In this document: piece after piece, positions 18,510 to 59,520 of the stretch | Numbering within the stretch: position 1 is the first letter of the stretch | Layout of the letters: each line of letters begins with the position of its first letter | Assembly: GCA_026988525.1 (NCBI GenBank) | Contig: JALSLC010000006.1 | Coordinates: 123 to 64,122 of the forward strand | DNA length: 64,000 nucleotides | Direction: 5' to 3' | Source: Archaeoglobaceae archaeon | GTDB taxonomy: Archaea; Halobacteriota; Archaeoglobi; Archaeoglobales; Archaeoglobaceae | Program-made: the position numbers and the translations under genes | Notes under the pieces: generated by a model | What the model saw: the letters and a program-made list of their open reading frames with translations, nothing else | What the model was told of the DNA's origin: nothing | Database searches by the model: none

Positions 18510-18950
18510 ATGAAAGTTTGCATAGTTAGTTCTTGCCTTCTTGGATTGGCGTGTAGATACGACGGTAAAGCCTTCGTAGATTTAAGTGAGAATTTAAAAA
18601 GTAAGTACCTTATAGTACCAGTTTGTCCAGAACAGCTCTCGGGATTGCCAACACCAAGAGAGAAATGTGAAATTGTAGGCGGTGATGGTTTTGATGTTCT
18701 ATCAAATAGAGCCAAGGTAATGACCGAAAGTGGTAGAGATGTCACTGATGTGTTCATTAAAGGGGCCAAGATGACATTAAAAATATGCAAAATTACAAAC
18801 GCAAAAATTGCATTTTTAAAAGATTTTAGCCCCTCCTGCGGAGTAAAAAGTATATACAACGGGAGTTTTAGTGGAAAAAAAGTAAGAGGTGTAGGAGTTA
18901 CAACCGCTCTTTTAACTAAAAATAAAATAAAAGTAGAGAAAATTATTTAG
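18510..18950 (+). CDS. DUF523-family protein (thiouracil desulfurase-like)
   Basis: 'VSSCLLGLACRYDG' N-terminus and 'SPSCG' are typical of DUF523. 146 aa. Confidence 0.6.
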   Translation: MKVCIVSSCLLGLACRYDGKAFVDLSENLKSKYLIVPVCPEQLSGLPTPREKCEIVGGDGFDVLSNRAKVMTESGRDVTDVFIKGAKMTLKICKITNAKIAFLKDFSPSCGVKSIYNGSFSGKKVRGVGVTTALLTKNKIKVEKII

Positions 18951-19572
18951 TAGGTATTGGAAACTGCGGCGGGAATGGCTTGTGGTAGTAGTGTATTAGT
19001 ATAAAGTCATGACCGTGGCAATCTTGACAATCTACACCTTTTGGAGAGTGAATGATAAAAACATTACCGTGGCTTGGAGAGACTGGATTTGGATAACCAT
19101 GGCAAGCTCCACAGTCTCTCATATTTTCCGTAGAAATTGATTTGTGACATAAGGAACATTTTCCTTCTTTAGCCCAAGTCGTATTGTGATGTAAAGCTGC
19201 TAAATACTGATCAATTTGTTTCTTAGTTTTGTGTTTTACATTTGGAACGTGGCAATAGATACAATACTTTGTAGCATTTAAATGTCCTGGAATTTTATCT
19301 ACCTGCGGTATATACTGTGTTTTTGGATTGTAGTGGCAATCAAGACATTCTCCACCTATGGGTTTAGTTACATTAGTTATAGCAGCCTTAATAGTTTTAC
19401 TTGAAGTTTTGTTTACTTTGTTGATTGTAACTGGAGTTGGTGTTTTAACGGGTGTTTTAACCACACTTTTGTTAGTTGTCAAATTTGGATTTACTTTTTC
19501 TGTTTGAACACACATGCTTAAAGCTACAGCTAAGGTTAAAGTAATAACAATTAAAAAAATAATAGATCTCAT
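18943..19572 (-). CDS. secreted pentaheme c-type cytochrome
   Basis: N-terminal signal/anchor 'IIFLIVITLTLAVALSMC'. Five CXXCH sites: CLDCH, CIYCH, CSLCH, CGACH, CQDCH. Confidence 0.85.
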   Translation of the reverse strand: MRSIIFLIVITLTLAVALSMCVQTEKVNPNLTTNKSVVKTPVKTPTPVTINKVNKTSSKTIKAAITNVTKPIGGECLDCHYNPKTQYIPQVDKIPGHLNATKYCIYCHVPNVKHKTKKQIDQYLAALHHNTTWAKEGKCSLCHKSISTENMRDCGACHGYPNPVSPSHGNVFIIHSPKGVDCQDCHGHDFILIHYYHKPFPPQFPIPTK

Positions 19573-19576
19573 AGGC

Positions 19577-20188
19577 TTAAATTTGTCCCAGTTTTCCAGT
19601 TACTGGCTCATAAACTGGAATTGGCGTAGTTTTATTTACATACTGATCCGCAGCGCTGTGCAGCTGAGCTATTGGCTGAGTGTGGCAAGCTGTACAGTAA
19701 ACCCCCTTAGGCAAGTGCACTTCTACGTAGTTTGTAACAGGCTTAACGGGGTTCTTTGGATTGTGACAGAGCATACACGGTGATCCACCATTCGGAGCTT
19801 TTGGTATATGAACGTGTGTTCCAGTACCATGGCAAACAGAACACTGCAAGTTTATAGTTCCCGGTCCACAGTGTATCTTGTGTGGATCACTTCCATGACA
19901 CTTAGTACATCCATTTGGATCTTTGTGAGCTTGATAATCTGCGGCTTTAGTGTGACATAGTAAACAGTTAACTTTTGCGTTAGAGCTGGAAGTTGCAGCT
20001 TTAACAGTTTCAGTAGCAGTTGGAGTGGGTGTTGGAGTTGAAGTAGGTGCAACAGTTGGAGTTGCAGTTGGCGTAGCAGTAGGTGTAGTTTCAGGAGTTG
20101 CCTTTTGTTGCTGAGCACATCCAGCAACGAATCCAGATACCAATACAACCAATATTAACAACACAAACAACTTACTTTTCATTGTCAC
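19577..20188 (-). CDS. pentaheme c-type cytochrome, lipobox plus Thr/Pro-rich linker
   Basis: Signal with lipobox-like 'VSGFVAGC', linker 'TPETTPTATPTATPTVAPTSTPTPTPTAT'. Five CXXCH sites: CLLCH, CTKCH, CSVCH, CMLCH, CTACH. Confidence 0.85.
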   Translation of the reverse strand: MTMKSKLFVLLILVVLVSGFVAGCAQQQKATPETTPTATPTATPTVAPTSTPTPTPTATETVKAATSSSNAKVNCLLCHTKAADYQAHKDPNGCTKCHGSDPHKIHCGPGTINLQCSVCHGTGTHVHIPKAPNGGSPCMLCHNPKNPVKPVTNYVEVHLPKGVYCTACHTQPIAQLHSAADQYVNKTTPIPVYEPVTGKLGQI

Positions 20189-35110: not shown

Positions 35111-36223
35111 TTACCATCTGAACTGTGTTCCCACTCTGTATGATGCATACATGAATGGGGGTATTCTGAAGTCGTCAATTAAATGCCATGAGAACTCAAG
35201 TCCAGCAAGCTCGAAGAATCTTTCCCAGCCTATCCTCTCTATGAACTCAACCATTCTCTCATGCTTCTTAGCGTTGTTCGCCCAAGCCATAAATATCTGC
35301 TTAATCTTTTCTACGAGAGTTGGCCATCTCGGTGGTTCATTTGGTACCCATGGTACAACTACCTTAGATAACTCTGGCGGATGTCTTGCATCAGAAACTT
35401 TACCAGCACAGAGTATAGCAGCACCGTCATTCTCTGGATCGAATAGAGGCATACCCGGACACATTGTGTAACAGTTACCGCAGTACATGCACTTTTCTCC
35501 ATCAACTTCAAGTGTCTTCTCCTTTGCCTTAACTTTTATTGCAGCGGTTGGACAAGCTGCAGCAGTTGAAGGTAATTCACACATTCTTCTAACTGCATCA
35601 TCATCTACGAGTGGTGGTGTTCTGTGAATACCAACTATTGATATATCAGATGCGTGAACAGCTCCACACATGTTAGCACAGCAGGCAAGGCTTATTCTGC
35701 ACAATCCCGGCAATTTCATGTCAACGAAGTACTCATAGAGTTCATCCATAATGGCTTTAACAATACCGGAAGCATCAATAGCTGGAGTGTGGCAGTGTAT
35801 CCATCCCTGAGTGTGTATTATGTTAGTTAAACCATACTTACCTTTCGGAGTGTCCCAAGTACCACCACATGGAAATCCTACTTTTTCTTCTACTTCTTTT
35901 ATAAGGTCATCTATCTTGCTCTCATCAGTCAATATGAACTCAACATTGTGTCTGCTTGTCCATCTCAAGTAACCGTCACAGTACTTGTCTGCGATGTCAC
36001 AAAGCTCTCTGATGGTATAGATGCTTATAAGTCTTGGGGTACCAAATCTTACAACGTAAACTACATCTCCACTTTCAGCCACTCTCTTTATTACACCCGG
36101 TCTTATAACTTCATGGTAGGCCCACTTTCCATAGTTCTTCTTTAATACAGGGTGCATTAAATCTTTAAAGTATGGTGGCCCAAAATCAGTCTTCCACCAA
36201 GGAGGTTTCTCCTGCTGCTGCAT
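35111..36223 (-). CDS. dsrB: dissimilatory sulfite reductase beta subunit
   Basis: 'GWIHCHTP', '[20 protein letters not shown]', and ferredoxin insert 'CPTAAI...[12 protein letters not shown]'. Abuts dsrA with no gap. Confidence 0.95.
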
Positions 36224-37519
36224 TTAAATCTCCTCCCCCTCATATTCAAATGATCTCCACTTCATACCCCTCTCCTTAAGCTTCTTAACAACTTCCGATT
36301 CTACAAGTTCTTCTTCCTTGAAGAACATGAACGGGTTAGTTCTTGGATGCTTGATCATTCTTACATCAGCTTCCTGTCCTATAACATTCAAGAATTCTCC
36401 AATACCTCTTCTCCATATTAGTTCTCCTACTCTCTCTCTGAACTTGCCTATGTCGTCCCACCATTCCCAGATCTTTTCAGCTATTTCACAGAGTGTGTCA
36501 AATAGCTCATCAGCCGGTATGAATGGTACAGCAACCCATCCTATTATTGCACCTTCTACGAATGGAGCCTTAGCACCAATAAGAACTGTTGCTCCTCTCT
36601 CCTTACCCGGCTTGAGAGCCTTAGGCATTTTGTTTATACAGTGCATACATCTTACACAATTTGAGTTGTCAATCTTGATTTCCTTCTTTTCTGCATCGTA
36701 GCTTATAGCTCCAGTTGGACAAAGCTTAACTACTTCCTCTTCTATGTCCATCCACTCTGCATATTCTTTAACTGCATCCTGATCAATCTGTATTTCGCCC
36801 TTCCAAGTTCCAATAACTGCACAATCTGCTCTTGCCTTAGCAGCTACACAGTCGTTGGGGCAGCCAGAGAATTTAAACTTGAACTTGTATGGCCACATTG
36901 GTCTGTGCAATTCATTCTGGAACTCCATAGTTATGTCATGGCAAATTTGTAGAGTGTCATAACATGCAAATTCACAGAGAGCTGGACCCATGCATGCTGA
37001 AGGAGTTCTCAAGTCTGAACCAGAACCACCAATATCGAATGGTGGGTCCAATTTCATCATATCTTCGAAGCAAGGCTGTAAGTATTCACTCTTTGTACCA
37101 AGAAGAATTATATCTCCAGTTGATCCGTGGAAGTTCGTAATACCACTACCCCACTTCTCCCATACATCCATAAGCTGTCTGAGAGCTTTAGTAGAATAGA
37201 ACCATCCACTTGGCATGTTTACACGTATTGTGTGGAAGTGGTGTACCTCAGGCACAATATCTTCAAGATCAGAATATCTACCTATAACTCCACCACCATA
37301 ACCAACAACTGAAACTATACCACCATGTTTCCAGTGTGTTTTCTTATCTTTGTAACTAATCTCAATCTGTTTCAAAAGAGCTCTTGCAGAGCCGGGCATC
37401 TTTATATCCTTACCCTCAGCAACAGCCTTGTCCTGTAATTCAGCAGTCTTCTTAATTTCTTTTACAAAACTAGGCCAAGGCCCATCAGGAATTTGGTCAA
37501 GCAAAGGTGTTTCTGACAA
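36224..37519 (-). CDS. dsrA: dissimilatory sulfite reductase alpha subunit
   Basis: '[16 protein letters not shown]' N-terminus, siroheme/cluster cysteines '[11 protein letters not shown]' and '[10 protein letters not shown]', ferredoxin insert 'CPTGAI...[12 protein letters not shown]'. TTG start after GGAGGTGAG. Confidence 0.95.
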
Positions 37520-55740: not shown

Positions 55741-56001
55741 TCACAATACATCATTGTTCAAAATTGATTTAACGTAATTAAATATTTTAGTTGCAAGCTC
55801 CTCGCTATCGCACTCAATCACTAAACCCAGATTTTCATTTATCTTAAACCTGAGAGAAGGTAAAATTTCTGAACTTACACTACCAGCAACATAGGACCAC
55901 CTTTTACCAATTATTTCAGCAAACCAAACACTAACTCCAAACTCTTTCCAAATTTTTTCGGCCAATTCTTCGAGTTTAGAAGTATATATCTCTCTCACCA
56001 T
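55741..56001 (-). CDS. 86-aa hypothetical protein overlapping the 3' end of hydG
   Basis: ORF overlaps the hydG stop by 26 nt, same strand. No recognisable motif ('MVREIYTSKLEELAEKIWKEFGVSVWFAEIIGKRW...'). Confidence 0.4.
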   Translation of the reverse strand: MVREIYTSKLEELAEKIWKEFGVSVWFAEIIGKRWSYVAGSVSSEILPSLRFKINENLGLVIECDSEELATKIFNYVKSILNNDVL

Positions 56002-57484
56002 CTTCTATCCTACTCAAGTACTCCATCAACTTTTCAAATGTTCTTTCAGGAACTAATTTTTTAACTTCTTCAATTTCTCTACTCAAAATTTTTGTACCTA
56101 TTTCTCTCGTTTCATCACTTGCAAAATCCTCCAAGTATTCTTTGTAAGTTAGAATTGCATTGAGCTTGCAAAATATCTTTTCTTTACCAGTTTTAAGTAA
56201 TTTCATTATTCTAATACCTGTTCTACCACATCTATACCCGGCTGTACAAAATGAAACTATATATCCCATTTCTGCTAACCATCTGACTCCTTCATCTAAC
56301 TCTCTTGTATCCCCAAGAATAAATTGCTGTTTTTCAGCTTCCTGTTCGTTGTAACTTTCTCTATATGACCCAATACCAATTTTTGAACCAAAATCAGTTT
56401 GGGTTACTCCTAAGTGAATTACTCTCCTTCTTATATGCTCTGGTTCTCTTGCAGTCAGTATCATACCTGTGTAAGGTATAGCTATTCTAACTGTAGCTAT
56501 AAATTTCATAAAATCCTCATCAGATACCTTATAAGCAGAATTTTGAACAAAAGGTGTGTTGGCTGCAGGCCTCAGCCTAGGAAAACTTACTGTATGTGGG
56601 CCTATTCCAAATTTTTCTTCTAACTCTAAAGCGTGAGATAACAACGCCAAAACTTCAAACCTCCAATCGAACAACCCAAGTAAAACACCTATACCTACAT
56701 CATCAACTCCCGCCTCTAAGGCCCTATGCATACAGTATAATCTCCAAAAGTAGTTACCTTTTATTGTATCAGGTGGATGAACTTCTGAATAAGTTTTCAT
56801 ATGGTATGTCTCTTGAAACACCTGAAATGTGCCAATACCAACATCTCTTAAAATTTCAAGTTCTTCCACAGTCATTGGAGCAGCATTAACGTTCACTCTC
56901 CTAATTTCCCCTCTACCACCTCTCTTTCCTTTAACTCTAACACTGTATATTGCTTTAAGAGTGTTGGCTATATAGTTGACATCGGAAAGTGGATGTTCCC
57001 CATACGATGTTATAAGTCTTTTATGCCCCATCTTTGCAAGTATCTCCGCTTCTTTCTTTACTTCATCCAAAGTTAGCCTTCTCCTAATTTCTACACTATT
57101 CTCCCTTCTAAAAGCACAATAAAGACAGTTATTAACACAGTAGTTAGAGCAATACAAGGGTGCAAAAGTAACTATTCTGTTGTCATATACTTGCTTTTTT
57201 ACAATACTTGCTGTATGAAAAATTTCCTTCCAAAGATCTTCATTTTTAACGTTCAATATTGCAGCACAATCCTCCAAGGATATGCAATCCTTGTTTTGTA
57301 AAACCTCATCCATTATACTTCTAATTTTACTTGGACTTGGATCTCTATTTTCTTTTAAACATTTCCATATTTTCTTTTCATCAATAAATGATTTTTTATT
57401 ATCCATGTATTTAGAAAAACCATCGTCTCCTTTTAACCGATCTTCCATCCACTTTTTAGCTACATTGATACTTTCAACCCACAT
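55976..57484 (-). CDS. hydG: HydG-like radical-SAM [FeFe]-hydrogenase maturase (tyrosine lyase family)
   Basis: Radical-SAM 'CVNNCLYC', 'FQVFQETYH', 'DDVGIGVLLGLFDWRFE', 'GPHTVSFPRLRPA', C-terminal cluster domain 'SFCTAGYRCGRTG...FCKLNAILT', terminal 'RDIYF'. 502 aa. Divergent from hydA. Confidence 0.85.
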   Translation of the reverse strand: MWVESINVAKKWMEDRLKGDDGFSKYMDNKKSFIDEKKIWKCLKENRDPSPSKIRSIMDEVLQNKDCISLEDCAAILNVKNEDLWKEIFHTASIVKKQVYDNRIVTFAPLYCSNYCVNNCLYCAFRRENSVEIRRRLTLDEVKKEAEILAKMGHKRLITSYGEHPLSDVNYIANTLKAIYSVRVKGKRGGRGEIRRVNVNAAPMTVEELEILRDVGIGTFQVFQETYHMKTYSEVHPPDTIKGNYFWRLYCMHRALEAGVDDVGIGVLLGLFDWRFEVLALLSHALELEEKFGIGPHTVSFPRLRPAANTPFVQNSAYKVSDEDFMKFIATVRIAIPYTGMILTAREPEHIRRRVIHLGVTQTDFGSKIGIGSYRESYNEQEAEKQQFILGDTRELDEGVRWLAEMGYIVSFCTAGYRCGRTGIRIMKLLKTGKEKIFCKLNAILTYKEYLEDFASDETREIGTKILSREIEEVKKLVPERTFEKLMEYLSRIEDGERDIYF

Positions 57485-57624
57485 CGTTGTAAATTGACGG
57501 TCACGTAATATTAAATTTACTCAAATTTTTAATACATTATAAAACAAATTTCGTAAAATAGATATACTTAAGATCGACTGTAGGTTAAAAAGTGAATAAA
57601 AAATATGTATATTGGGGGGTTAAA

Positions 57625-59520
57625 ATGGCACAAGTAACAATAGATGATAAAATTATTGAAGTGTCTGAAGATATTACCGTAGAGGAGTTAATGAAAAAAG
57701 AGGGCATTGAATTCTGGAGGCCTTTTGAAGTGCCTCAAATGGAGTTTATACATAACAAAGATTGTCCTCTTATAAACATTGTTGAAGTAGATGGGGCTAT
57801 AGCTACTCCGAAAAAAATCAGACAAATGAAAGTAAAAGATGGAATGGTTATCAAAACGAAATCAGAAAAAATAAAGAAAACCTTAGAAGAAAGACTAAAA
57901 AAACTTGAAGAAAGAAAGGAATGCCATTTAATTAGACTTCTTCAAGAGTTTACTGCAATTGAAGCCGAAAATGCAGGAATAGTATCTCTTGAAGAGAGAA
58001 AGAACTGGAAATTTGAAGGATGGAAATCAGAACCAGCAATAGTGTACGATCCCGAATTATGTATAAGATGTGGAAATTGCGTTGAAACTTGTAAAAGTGT
58101 TCAAAGTGTTGAAGCTATAAAAATGGATGAAGAAAAAGGAGTAATACTTGTAGATGAGGCAAGATGTACAAGGTGTGGACAGTGCATTCATGCTTGCCCA
58201 ATGGGTTTAGAAAATGAAAAAATAAAAATATTCAAAGAATTTAATGGTTGTAAGCTTTGCCCGTATTCAAGACCATACAGCGCTATAAGAGAGATAGACC
58301 ATACAAAGATTGTTTGGGAAGCGTTAAAAGATAAAGAAAAATTTGTAGTTGTACAGTTTGCTCCATCAATGAGAGTTAGTATTGGAGAAGAGTTTGGATT
58401 GAAACCAGGTGAGATAGTTGTTGGAAAAATTTATGCTGCTTTAAGAAGGCTGGGATTTGACAGAGTATGGGATACAAACTTTGCTGCCGATGAAACAATA
58501 ATGGAGGAAGGAACTGAACTAATATGCCGTTTTATAAAAGCTGGAATAATAAACAAAGATAATGTAAAGGGTATTAAAATTACAGATGAAATGTTAAAGA
58601 ATATCTCAGATAAATTACCTCAATTTACATCATGCAGCCCGGGATGGGTTAAGTTCTGCGAAACGTTTTATCCGGAATTAATAGACCATATATCTTCTGC
58701 AAAATCACCACAACAGATGTTTGGTGCTACTGCAAAAACCTATGCAGCGTTAAAACTTGGAATTGATCCAGAAAAAGTTTTTGTAGTATCAATAATGCCG
58801 TGTACAGCTAAAAAATTTGAAAGAGAAAGAGAAGAAATGTGTTCAGCTTGGAAATGGTTGAAGGAAAATGGATATATTTCTGAGTATACACCACCCTTCC
58901 CAGATGTAGATGTTGTATTAACTACAAGAGAGTTTGCTAAATTGTTGAAAATGGCAGGTATAGACTTAGCCAAAATGCCTGATGAAGAACCAGATTCATT
59001 ACTTGGGAAATATACTGGAGCAGCAGCGATATTTGGAAGGACGGGTGGTGTAATGGAAGCTGCTTTGAGAACTGCATACGAGTTGATAACTGGCAAAAAG
59101 TTAGAAAAATTAGAGTGGGAAGAATTGGAAACCTTAGACGGTATAAAATCTGCAACAATAAAACTTAATGGTAAGGAAATAAAAGTTGCTGTTGCTCATG
59201 GGCTAAATAATGCAAGAAAAGTTTGTGAATCTGTTAAAAACGGTGGAGAGATGGCAAATTACCACTTCATAGAGTTTATGGCGTGTCCCGGTGGATGCAT
59301 TGGAGGAGGTGGACAACCAGAACCAACCAACTTAGAAAGAATAAAAGCAAGAATCCATGCTTTAAACGTTCACGATAGAAATTTACCGCTCAGAAAATCT
59401 CACGAAAATCCAGAAATACTACAAATGTACGAAGACTTCTTTGAACATCCTATTAGCGAAAAATCTCATGAATTACTACACACAAAGTATGTAGATCGAT
59501 CTATACACCTAAAACAATAA
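57625..59520 (+). CDS. hydA: [FeFe]-hydrogenase catalytic subunit (HydA, CpI-like multidomain architecture)
   Basis: H-cluster motifs L1 'TSCSPGW' (variant), L2 'MPCTAKKFE', L3 '[16 protein letters not shown]'. Also '[11 protein letters not shown]', two ferredoxin motifs '[11 protein letters not shown]' and '[12 protein letters not shown]', and the C-terminal '[17 protein letters not shown]...HELLHTKY'. The ATG at 57625 is preceded by GGGGGG. Confidence 0.9.
   Translation: [631 protein letters not shown]

What the first reader, a model, noticed from the sequence alone, without database searches (positions are those of the whole stretch)
58627..58647. HydA L1 motif reads TSCSPGW: the CpI Cys300-equivalent [4Fe-4S]H ligand position is Ser
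The canonical group-A L1 motif is TSCCPxW. In CpI the first Cys (C299) is the proton relay and the second (C300) ligates the [4Fe-4S] subcluster. Here '[36 protein letters not shown]' aligns without gaps to CpI '[36 protein letters not shown]', so Ser occupies the ligand position. The codon is AGC, one transversion from TGC at 58636. Three readings are possible. The neighbouring Cys may take over ligation, leaving the proton relay lost as in sensory-type enzymes. A Ser-ligated cluster may exist. Or this may be a sequencing error or early pseudogenisation. L2, L3, K358- and M497-equivalents are all canonical, which argues against wholesale decay.
Basis: partly seen in the sequence, partly recalled or inferred. 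Interest (0 to 1): 0.7.

Follow-up and report, generated by a model that had tools for sequence, protein, structure and literature searches.

The report
Serine-type L1 motif in archaeal HydA
This archaeal iron-iron hydrogenase really has a serine where textbook enzymes use a cysteine to hold the catalytic iron-sulfur cluster, but it is a conserved, already documented natural variant, not an error, and its chemistry has never been tested.

Summary
Window 58627-58647 encodes TSCSPGW, and AGC at 58636-58638 sits ungapped at the CpI Cys300 position. The gene is an intact 631-aa group-A [FeFe] hydrogenase beside hydG.

It is not an error or decay:
- The same DNA occurs in independent assemblies.
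- Five other Archaeoglobaceae genomes keep AGY-Ser although synonymous sites are saturated (pN 0.04-0.15).
- 95 of the 120 nearest homologues, from bacteria and archaea, carry TSCSP.

Ser and Cys have swapped about 20 times in a 354-sequence tree. In all 123 Ser-type sequences the relay Cys299, E279, E282, R286, S319, M353, K358, M497 and the other three ligand cysteines are invariant. No substitute ligand residue co-varies with Ser. This argues against the neighbouring Cys taking over. It favours Ser, or solvent held by it, as the fourth ligand.

The variant is already published: the L1 motif is written TSC(C/S)P, with Ser in roughly 20% of sequences. I found no biochemical or structural study of it.

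More novel is the context. This is an Archaeoglobaceae HydA whose relatives sit in hdrACB-mvhD-hydA operons or are fused to MvhD.

The parts
57625..59520 (+). hydA: [FeFe] hydrogenase catalytic subunit, 631 aa from the ATG at 57625. The mechanical ORF starts at a GTG at 57592. The fold is CpI-like, but the FS2 and FS4C ligands are missing.
   Evidence: ORF. Pfam. TIGR02512 above cutoff. Identical to public protein P0126. AF2 model has pLDDT 90.4, and the best Foldseek hits are 8a6t and CpI.
58627..58647 (+). L1 motif TSCSPGW. C348 is the CpI C299 proton relay. S349 sits at the CpI C300 ligand position.
58636..58638 (+). AGC codon for Ser349, the residue in question.
   Evidence: It is AGC or AGT in all seven related Archaeoglobaceae loci, with synonymous changes in the flanking codons.
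58507..58530 (+). Proton-pathway residues E306, E309 and R313 (CpI E279, E282, R286).
   Evidence: Read. Invariant in all 123 Ser-type sequences.
58693..58695 (+). S368 (CpI S319), a proton-pathway serine.
58795..58821 (+). L2 motif MPCTAKKFE (M353, C355, K358 and E361 equivalents).
59272..59307 (+). L3 motif [12 protein letters not shown] (M497, C499 and C503 equivalents).
58060..58197 (+). Two CxxCxxCxxxC motifs (C157 to C167 and C192 to C202) for the two accessory [4Fe-4S] F-clusters.
58543..58611 (+). An insertion of about 23 aa (residues 318-340) just before L1. It is shared only with the Archaeoglobaceae, Thermodesulfatator, Desulfonauticus and MvhD-fused subclade.
   Evidence: Alignment A1.
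55976..57484 (-). hydG, the radical-SAM H-cluster maturase, transcribed divergently from hydA.
   Evidence: TIGR03955 scores 461 bits against a cutoff of 312.
55741..56001 (-). An 86-aa ORF overlapping the end of hydG. It is conserved downstream of hydG in archaeal and bacterial relatives and has no known family.

Best explanation
The gene encodes a functional, H-cluster-bearing [FeFe] hydrogenase of an Archaeoglobaceae archaeon. It belongs to a bacterial and archaeal clade of group-A enzymes that work with MvhD and HdrABC-type partners. The Ser at the CpI-Cys300 position is a selected, heritable and recurrent natural variant of the L1 motif, TSC(C/S)P.

The most likely arrangement is as follows. 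The first Cys (C348) keeps its role as the proton relay to the azadithiolate bridge. Three cysteines (C404, C565, C569) ligate the [4Fe-4S]H cubane. The fourth iron is held by the Ser349 side-chain oxygen, bound directly as serine or serinate. An oxygen donor would be expected to shift the cubane's redox potential and stability, and so the catalytic bias.

Shown here: the variant is real, conserved and recurrent, and the rest of the catalytic machinery is intact. Inferred: direct Fe-O(Ser) coordination and its tuning role. The confidence given (0.55) is for the full statement including direct Ser-O ligation; that the variant is genuine, selected and in a functional enzyme I rate at about 0.9.
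For: The variant is real and selected.
- The 21-nt L1 DNA is identical in the ENA and Logan assemblies, L006 and L007.
- All 36 full-length members of the six nearest 90% clusters have TSCSP[GA]W.
- Five other Archaeoglobaceae MAG loci have AGT or AGC, with synonymous changes around it.
- hydA pairs show pS 0.73-0.96 against pN 0.04-0.15.

The variant is widespread.
- 95 of the best 120 homologues carry TSCSP, down to 48% identity.
- 15 of about 133 diverse 50%-identity representatives carry it.
- 18 of 120 homologues of a group-A6 enzyme carry it.
- On a neighbour-joining tree of 354 H-domains there are at least about 21 Ser/Cys switches.

The catalytic machinery is intact. In 123 of 123 Ser-type sequences the equivalents of C299, E279, E282, R286, S319, M353, K358, M497, C355, C499 and C503 are conserved.

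Nothing replaces the ligand. No Cys, His, Asp or Glu is gained together with Ser in either subfamily. Gly at +2 (CpI G302) is found in 119 of 123 Ser-type sequences against 154 of 231 Cys-type ones, and changes G to A 6:0 in independent Ser/Cys pairs. This fits a shorter side chain needing the backbone closer to the cluster.

Maturases are linked to the gene.
- hydG is adjacent.
- hydF and hydG lie next to hydA in L004 and L005.
- A bacterial relative has its TSCSP hydA inside a hydE-hydF-...-hydG-aspartase cluster, next to a TSCCPAW hydrogenase.

Literature: Ser is proposed as an alternative ligand, present in about 20% of sequences (PMC5855289; PMC4284687).
Against: No structure, spectroscopy or activity exists for any Ser-type enzyme that I could find. 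No PDB chain whose L1 I could inspect has TSCSP.

The engineered equivalent, CrHydA1 C115S, largely lost the [4Fe-4S] cluster and had no activity (PMC5855289). Ser is therefore not a drop-in replacement.

The co-variation signals are weak once multiple testing is allowed for. I could not inspect model coordinates to measure geometry.

hydE and hydF are not in this window, and two sister MAG loci lack hydG beside hydA. Maturation in this lineage is therefore not established.
Confidence: 0.55

Rival explanations
1. Ser349 is not a ligand. The cubane is held by three cysteines, and the unique iron carries hydroxide or water (or is open), positioned by hydrogen bonding to the Ser hydroxyl. This would be a site-differentiated [4Fe-4S]H.
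For: The same sequence evidence as for the best explanation applies: no substitute ligand residue and intact catalytic residues. In CrHydA1, several Cys-to-Ala ligand variants still held a [4Fe-4S] cluster, and the authors invoke solvent coordination (PMC5855289). Ser is shorter than Cys, so direct bonding needs the backbone to move.
Against: Only Ser, never Ala or Gly, alternates with Cys at this position in 354 sequences. This suggests the hydroxyl itself is required. CrHydA1 variants with Ala at ligand positions did not insert the [2Fe] subcluster.
Confidence: 0.25
2. The neighbouring Cys348 shifts register and becomes the fourth ligand. The proton relay is lost, and the protein behaves like a slow, sensory-type hydrogenase.
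For: Kertess et al. suggest the adjacent Cys might substitute in the C115A variant (PMC5855289).
Against: E279, E282, R286 and S319 equivalents are invariant in 123 of 123 Ser-type sequences. This would be pointless without the relay Cys. P301 and W303 fix the register with no gaps. There is no PAS domain or C-terminal sensory domain. The relatives are wired to HdrABC/MvhD and sit in maturase clusters like catalytic enzymes. Ser and Cys forms interchange between close relatives that have the same partners.
Confidence: 0.05
3. The protein no longer binds an H-cluster and serves as an electron-transfer or scaffold protein. Alternatively, the gene is an early pseudogene or carries a sequencing error.
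For: hydE and hydF are absent from the window. hydG is absent next to hydA in L002 and L003. Most archaea with hydA lack the maturases (PMC11216029).
Against: The ORF is intact, with dN far below dS. The DNA is identical in independent assemblies. Every residue that contacts the [2Fe] subsite is invariant. hydG is adjacent and scores above its equivalog cutoff.
Confidence: 0.04

Closest known systems
Prototypical group-A [FeFe] hydrogenases with solved structures: CpI (1feh, 4xdc), T. kivui HydA1 (8a6t), D. desulfuricans HydAB
   Same: The H-domain fold is the same (Foldseek TM about 0.71-0.85 normalised to the target). So are L2 and L3, the proton pathway, K358, M353, M497 and the two F-clusters.
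   Different: L1 has Ser at the C300 ligand position. The N-terminal FS2 and FS4C cluster ligands are absent. Five family-specific conserved cysteines are present (C58, C111, C220, C223, C545). There are insertions of about 23 aa before L1 and about 19 aa after L2.
Natural Ser-type L1 variants already reported: environmental hydA from Great Salt Lake and Guerrero Negro (PMC4284687), Melainabacteria ACD20 (PMC3787301), Hydrogenedentota BfuA subtypes (PMC11406978), and the roughly 20% Ser noted via Winkler 2013 in PMC5855289
   Same: The substitution is identical (TSCSPGW, CpI position 300). The open question of whether Ser ligates the cubane is also the same.
   Different: Those reports concern bacterial, mostly HydABC/Bfu-type or fragmentary sequences. 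This one is an archaeal (Archaeoglobaceae) enzyme of an MvhD/Hdr-associated clade. The two Melainabacteria proteins also lack an L3 cysteine, whereas this one has all the other ligands.
Engineered CrHydA1 C115S (Kertess et al. 2017, PMC5855289)
   Same: Ser replaces the same ligand cysteine.
   Different: The engineered variant loses most of its [4Fe-4S] cluster and all activity. The natural enzymes are under strong purifying selection, so the surrounding scaffold presumably accommodates Ser, for example through the near-obligatory Gly at +2.
MvhADG-HdrABC, the electron-bifurcating [NiFe] hydrogenase / heterodisulfide reductase
   Same: Relatives of this HydA lie in hdrA-hdrC-hdrB-mvhD-hydA operons (L005). 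Others are fused to MvhD next to hdrACB-mvhDGA (L009). An H2-oxidising module therefore appears to be delivered to HdrA through MvhD.
   Different: The hydrogenase module is [FeFe] rather than [NiFe]. In this window no mvhD or hdr gene is adjacent.

Membership tests
[FeFe] hydrogenase, group A (HydA) | H-cluster domain (PF02906) plus a small-subunit-like C-terminus (PF02256), with the curated family model above its cutoff | tested here: met
   PF02906 1.2e-90 and PF02256 4e-22. TIGR02512 scores 460 bits against 406.
[FeFe] hydrogenase, group A (HydA) | L1 motif in its strict form, TSCCPxW | tested here: not met
   The window reads TSCSPGW. It does meet the broader published form, (FLI)TSC(C/S)P(GAS)W (PMC4284687).
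[FeFe] hydrogenase, group A (HydA) | L2 MPCxxKxxE and L3 ExMxCxxGCxxG | tested here: met
   MPCTAKKFE and [12 protein letters not shown].
[FeFe] hydrogenase, group A (HydA) | Catalytic proton-transfer pathway (CpI C299, E279, S319, E282, R286) | tested here: met
   C348, E306, S368, E309 and R313 are invariant in alignment A1 and in 123 of 123 Ser-type sequences.
[FeFe] hydrogenase, group A (HydA) | Dedicated maturases HydE, HydF and HydG in the genome | tested here: inconclusive
   hydG is adjacent. No hydE or hydF is found in the 64-kb window. hydF is present beside hydA in sister MAGs L004 and L005. The rest of the genome was not available.
[FeFe] hydrogenase, group A (HydA) | H2 oxidation or evolution activity and H-cluster spectroscopic signature | not testable with these tools
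   This needs expression, maturation, FTIR/EPR and activity assays.
NADH-dependent [FeFe] hydrogenase, group A6 (NF040763) | Score above the curated cutoff | tested here: not met
   595 bits against a cutoff of 765. No NuoE/F-like genes are nearby.
Sensory [FeFe] hydrogenases (groups C and D) | Loss of the relay Cys and pathway residues; PAS or C-terminal 4-Cys domain | tested here: not met
   The relay Cys and the pathway are intact. No such domains were found.
MvhD/HdrABC-coupled hydrogenase module | Genetic linkage or fusion to MvhD (PF02662) and hdrABC | tested here: inconclusive
   Not met in the window, where the neighbours are hydG and an ABC binding protein. Met in relatives: the L005 operon, the L009 fusion and L010.
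Iron-sulfur clusters with a natural serine ligand | A direct Fe-O(Ser) bond | not testable with these tools
A structure or EXAFS is needed.

The most novel reading that the evidence does not exclude
Archaeoglobaceae acquired, from Thermodesulfobacteria-like bacteria, an [FeFe] hydrogenase that replaces MvhAG as the H2-oxidising module of an electron-bifurcating MvhD-HdrABC complex. Its H-cluster cubane is naturally ligated by three cysteines and a serine oxygen, which tunes the potential for this role. The small conserved ORF downstream of hydG would be a previously unrecognised accessory in making it.
Probability: 0.3. Interest if true: 0.6.

Novelty: new member of a known kind. Interest (0 to 1): 0.33.

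Why it matters
Whether a serine oxygen can serve as a native ligand of the H-cluster cubane is still untested, and several papers have flagged the question. Answering it would show how the protein tunes the redox potential, bias and stability of the fastest known H2 catalyst.

This window does not open the question. It adds a well-behaved archaeal example. The comparison also supplies useful constraints: the proton relay is retained, no substitute ligand appears, and Gly is preferred at +2.

The genomic context may matter more than the motif. [FeFe] hydrogenases in a classical sulfate-reducing archaeal family are linked to heterodisulfide-reductase partners and carry bacterial-type maturases. 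This extends the recently recognised archaeal [FeFe] hydrogenase repertoire.

Tried and rejected
- **Sequencing error or pseudogene.** Rejected from identical independent assemblies, orthologue codons and dN/dS.
- **Cys356 (WVKFCE) as a compensating ligand.** Rejected. It is variable among Ser-type sequences, present in some Cys-type ones, and V/I in A6 Ser-types.
- **Cys545 as a compensating ligand.** Rejected. It is conserved in both the Ser and Cys members of this family and absent from A6 Ser-types.
- **Any co-gained Cys, His, Asp or Glu.** None found.
- **A solved structure with TSCSP.** None among the PDB alignments I could display. Only five alignments print per search, so A. woodii 7q4v and T. 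maritima 7p5h were not seen directly. The 7p5h paper says the coordination sphere matches CpI.
- **A biochemically characterised Ser-type enzyme.** The papers on S. aciditrophicus HydAB and on novel hydrogenase screening do not mention the motif.
- **Archaeoglobi in the archaeal [FeFe] hydrogenase survey (PMC11216029).** No mention in the main text, and the supplements are not held.
- **Papers not held.** Winkler 2013 and Calusinska 2010.
- **Geometry from the AF2 model.** Coordinates are not exposed.
- **Family assignment of the 86-aa ORF.** Nothing in Pfam or NCBIfam.
- **Hdr-linked [FeFe] hydrogenase papers.** The cap on papers was reached before I could read PMC7325909, PMC5947623 and PMC10667645.
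Full report
**Observation.** Window 58627-58647 on the plus strand reads ACA TCA TGC AGC CCG GGA TGG, which is TSCSPGW. AGC is at 58636-58638. The motif lies in an intact ORF, 57592-59520. Its true start is most likely the ATG at 57625, because the homologues and the public gene call begin at MAQVTIDD (631 aa).

The protein matches Pfam Fe_hyd_lg_C (1.2e-90) and Fe_hyd_SSU (4e-22), and has two ferredoxin-type clusters. It passes the NCBIfam cutoff for '[FeFe] hydrogenase, group A' (460 bits against 406). It falls short of the 'group A6 NADH-dependent' model (595 against 765).

phmmer alignments to solved structures run ungapped through L1. They put the Ser opposite the second Cys of TSCCP in T. 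kivui HydA1, HDCR HydA2 and D. desulfuricans HydA. The CpI chain printed confirms the numbering (C299, C300).

**Not an error and not decay.**
- The identical 631-aa protein and the identical 21-nt L1 DNA are present in an ENA assembly (57-kb contig) and a Logan assembly of run SRR7968110. A 66-kb NCBI/JGI contig carries them as well.
- A scan of one genome per species found five related loci, all from Archaeoglobaceae MAGs (75-87% identity). All encode Ser with AGT or AGC, while the neighbouring Ser, Pro and Gly codons differ synonymously.
- Between these hydA genes synonymous sites are saturated (pS 0.73-0.96), but pN is only 0.04-0.15. This is strong purifying selection.
- All 36 full-length members of the six nearest 90% clusters carry TSCSP[GA]W.

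**How widespread the variant is.**
- Of the 120 best homologues (89% down to 48% identity), 95 have TSCSP and 23 have TSCCP. They come from Thermodesulfatator, Desulfonauticus, Desulfovulcanus, Salidesulfovibrio, Planctomycetes, Actinobacteria and others. L2 and L3 are intact.
- Among 150 representatives of 50%-identity clusters, 15 of about 133 with a recognisable L1 have Ser. One is a 1192-aa protein from a eukaryotic transcriptome.
- Homologues of a CpI-like 'group A6' enzyme from Natronincola split 18 Ser to 102 Cys.
- On a neighbour-joining tree of 354 H-domains (123 Ser, 231 Cys), Fitch parsimony needs about 21 Ser/Cys changes. The count is rough, because tree error inflates it. Even so, the position clearly toggles repeatedly between close relatives.
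- In one bacterial locus, a TSCCPAW periplasmic-type hydrogenase and a TSCSPGW enzyme sit in the same hydE-hydF-...-hydG cluster.

**What the comparison says about mechanism.** In all 123 Ser-type sequences the following equivalents are 100% conserved:
- the proton relay Cys299;
- the pathway residues E279, E282, R286 and S319;
- the [2Fe]-pocket residues M353, K358 and M497;
- the other three ligands C355, C499 and C503.

If the first Cys had been recruited as a ligand and the relay lost, as in sensory enzymes, the pathway should be relaxed. It is not. The flanking Pro and Trp also fix the register without gaps.

I looked for a residue that could replace the missing thiolate. No Cys, His, Asp or Glu is gained together with Ser in either subfamily. 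The nearby Cys356, and a family-conserved Cys545, are not specific to Ser-type enzymes.

Only Ser alternates with Cys at this column, never Ala or Gly. This points to a requirement for the hydroxyl.

In 22 roughly independent nearest Ser/Cys pairs a few positions lean one way:
- CpI G302: Gly in 119 of 123 Ser-type against 154 of 231 Cys-type sequences, with G to A changes 6:0;
- CpI V233: Val to Ile 10:0.

These changes are toward smaller residues in the Ser form. That fits a shorter ligand pulling the loop toward the cubane. The signals are only suggestive after multiple testing, and one Archaeoglobaceae orthologue has TSCSPAW.

An AlphaFold2 model is confident (pLDDT 90.4, pTM 0.91) and matches T. 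kivui HydA1, CpI and D. desulfuricans HydAB.

**Best reading.** This is a catalytic H-cluster enzyme. Cys348 remains the relay, and Ser349 oxygen supplies the fourth ligand to [4Fe-4S]H, either directly or through bound solvent. I put about 0.9 on 'genuine, selected, functional variant'. For direct Ser-O ligation I put about 0.55, against about 0.25 for a three-Cys cubane with solvent held by Ser. The register-shift reading gets about 0.05, and error, pseudogene or non-catalytic readings get about 0.04 together.

**What is already known.**
- Boyd et al. 2014 write the L1 motif as (FLI)TSC(C/S)P(GAS)W. They report that the Cys300-to-Ser substitution is 'commonly observed' in environmental hydA, and they speculate that it stabilises an oxidised cluster (PMC4284687).
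- Kertess et al. 2017 state that Ser occupies this position in about 20% of putative hydrogenases. They call this surprising, because their engineered CrHydA1 C115S lost the cubane and all activity (PMC5855289).
- Di Rienzi et al. 2013 note TSCSPGW in Melainabacteria (PMC3787301).
- A 2024 study of Hydrogenedentota finds Ser common in four of five BfuA subtypes and says biochemical validation is lacking (PMC11406978).

The motif variant is therefore known. Its chemistry is an acknowledged open question. I found no structure or spectroscopy for any Ser-type enzyme.

**Context, which is the less ordinary part.** The window is archaeal. It carries:
- an Archaeoglobus-type GGGP synthase;
- Orc1 and PolB;
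- CofG/H;
- dsrAB;
- two multihaem cytochromes.

Its GC content is 34%.

hydA is transcribed divergently from a bona fide hydG (TIGR03955, 461 bits against 312). An 86-aa ORF follows hydG. No hydE or hydF is in the window.

Sister loci differ in informative ways:
- One Archaeoglobaceae MAG has hydF, the small ORF and hydG facing hdrA-hdrC-hdrB-mvhD-hydA (L005).
- Another has hydF, the small ORF and hydG beside an hdrB-like remnant and hydA (L004).
- Two have no hydG beside hydA.

Bacterial relatives show the same partners:
- Some are fused N-terminally to MvhD and sit directly after hdrACB-mvhDGA and before rnf (L009).
- The nearest TSCCP relative follows a ferredoxin-MvhD gene (L010).

This HydA family therefore appears to be an [FeFe] alternative to MvhAG for delivering H2 electrons to HdrA through MvhD. 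The Ser/Cys state does not track the partner.

The main text of the 2024 survey of archaeal [FeFe] hydrogenases does not mention Archaeoglobi, and its tables were not available.

**Verdict.** This is a new archaeal member of a known kind of L1 variant. Interest is modest for the motif itself. The Archaeoglobaceae and Hdr context, and the conserved unannotated ORF beside hydG, raise it somewhat.

Noticed in passing
window 55741-56001 (-); also L001 8172-8417, L004 7278-7535, L005 3627-3941, L008 11877-12122: An 81-104-aa ORF lies immediately downstream of hydG, overlapping its end. It is conserved in Archaeoglobaceae and in a Thermodesulfatator-type bacterium (38% identity over 50 aa, E 1e-9), with the motif FG..VWFAE.xGxR...xAG. 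It has no Pfam or NCBIfam family even at E<=5. It may be an unrecognised hydrogenase-maturation accessory.
   Followed up: partly
L005 5945-11423 (Archaeoglobaceae MAG JALVYA010000083): An hdrA-hdrC-hdrB-mvhD-hydA operon faces hydG, the small ORF and hydF. An [FeFe] hydrogenase sits where MvhAG would be expected in an Mvh-Hdr locus.
   Followed up: partly
L009 1-10322 and L010 7343-9797: Bacterial relatives are fused to an N-terminal MvhD (FlpD) domain, directly after hdrACB-mvhD-mvhG-mvhA and before hycI and rnf. The closest TSCCP relative is preceded by a ferredoxin-MvhD gene.
   Followed up: partly
window 57763-57765, 57922-57924, 58249-58260, 59224-59226 (HydA residues C58, C111, C220, C223, C545): Five cysteines are conserved in 113-120 of 121 family members, although the CpI FS2 and FS4C cluster ligands are missing. 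They may form an extra metal site linking the degenerate N-terminal domain to the H-domain.
   Followed up: partly
window 58543-58611 (HydA residues 318-340): An insertion of about 23 residues lies just upstream of L1. It is confined to the Archaeoglobaceae, Thermodesulfatator, Desulfonauticus and MvhD-fused subclade. Environmental surveys have also noted insertions at this spot. Its function is unknown.
   Followed up: no
window 57592-57624: The mechanical ORF starts at a GTG at 57592. Homologues and public gene calls start at the ATG at 57625, so the first 11 residues are probably not translated. Their AF2 pLDDT is below 50.
   Followed up: yes
window whole; L002, L003: hydG is present, but no hydE or hydF is in 64 kb. 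Two sister MAG loci have hydA directly beside the arginine decarboxylase gene with no hydG, yet hydA stays under purifying selection. How the H-cluster is matured in this lineage is unclear.
   Followed up: partly
L008 3037-13516: One bacterial cluster encodes hydE, hydF, a periplasmic-type HydAB with cytochrome b (TSCCPAW), the TSCSPGW HydA, a TM1266-like protein, hydG, the small ORF and an aspartate-ammonia-lyase-like gene. Cys-type and Ser-type enzymes therefore share one set of maturases.
   Followed up: partly
window 35111-37519 (-) and 18943-20188 (-): dsrA/dsrB-like sulfite reductase genes and two tandem multihaem c-type cytochrome genes. Together with 34% GC, this suggests an unusual, low-GC, sulfur- or metal-respiring Archaeoglobaceae lineage.
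   Followed up: no
protein P0159 (representatives search): A 4122-residue protein matches HydA in seven separate stretches (1578 bits). It is either a giant multi-H-domain protein or an assembly or gene-calling artefact.
   Followed up: no
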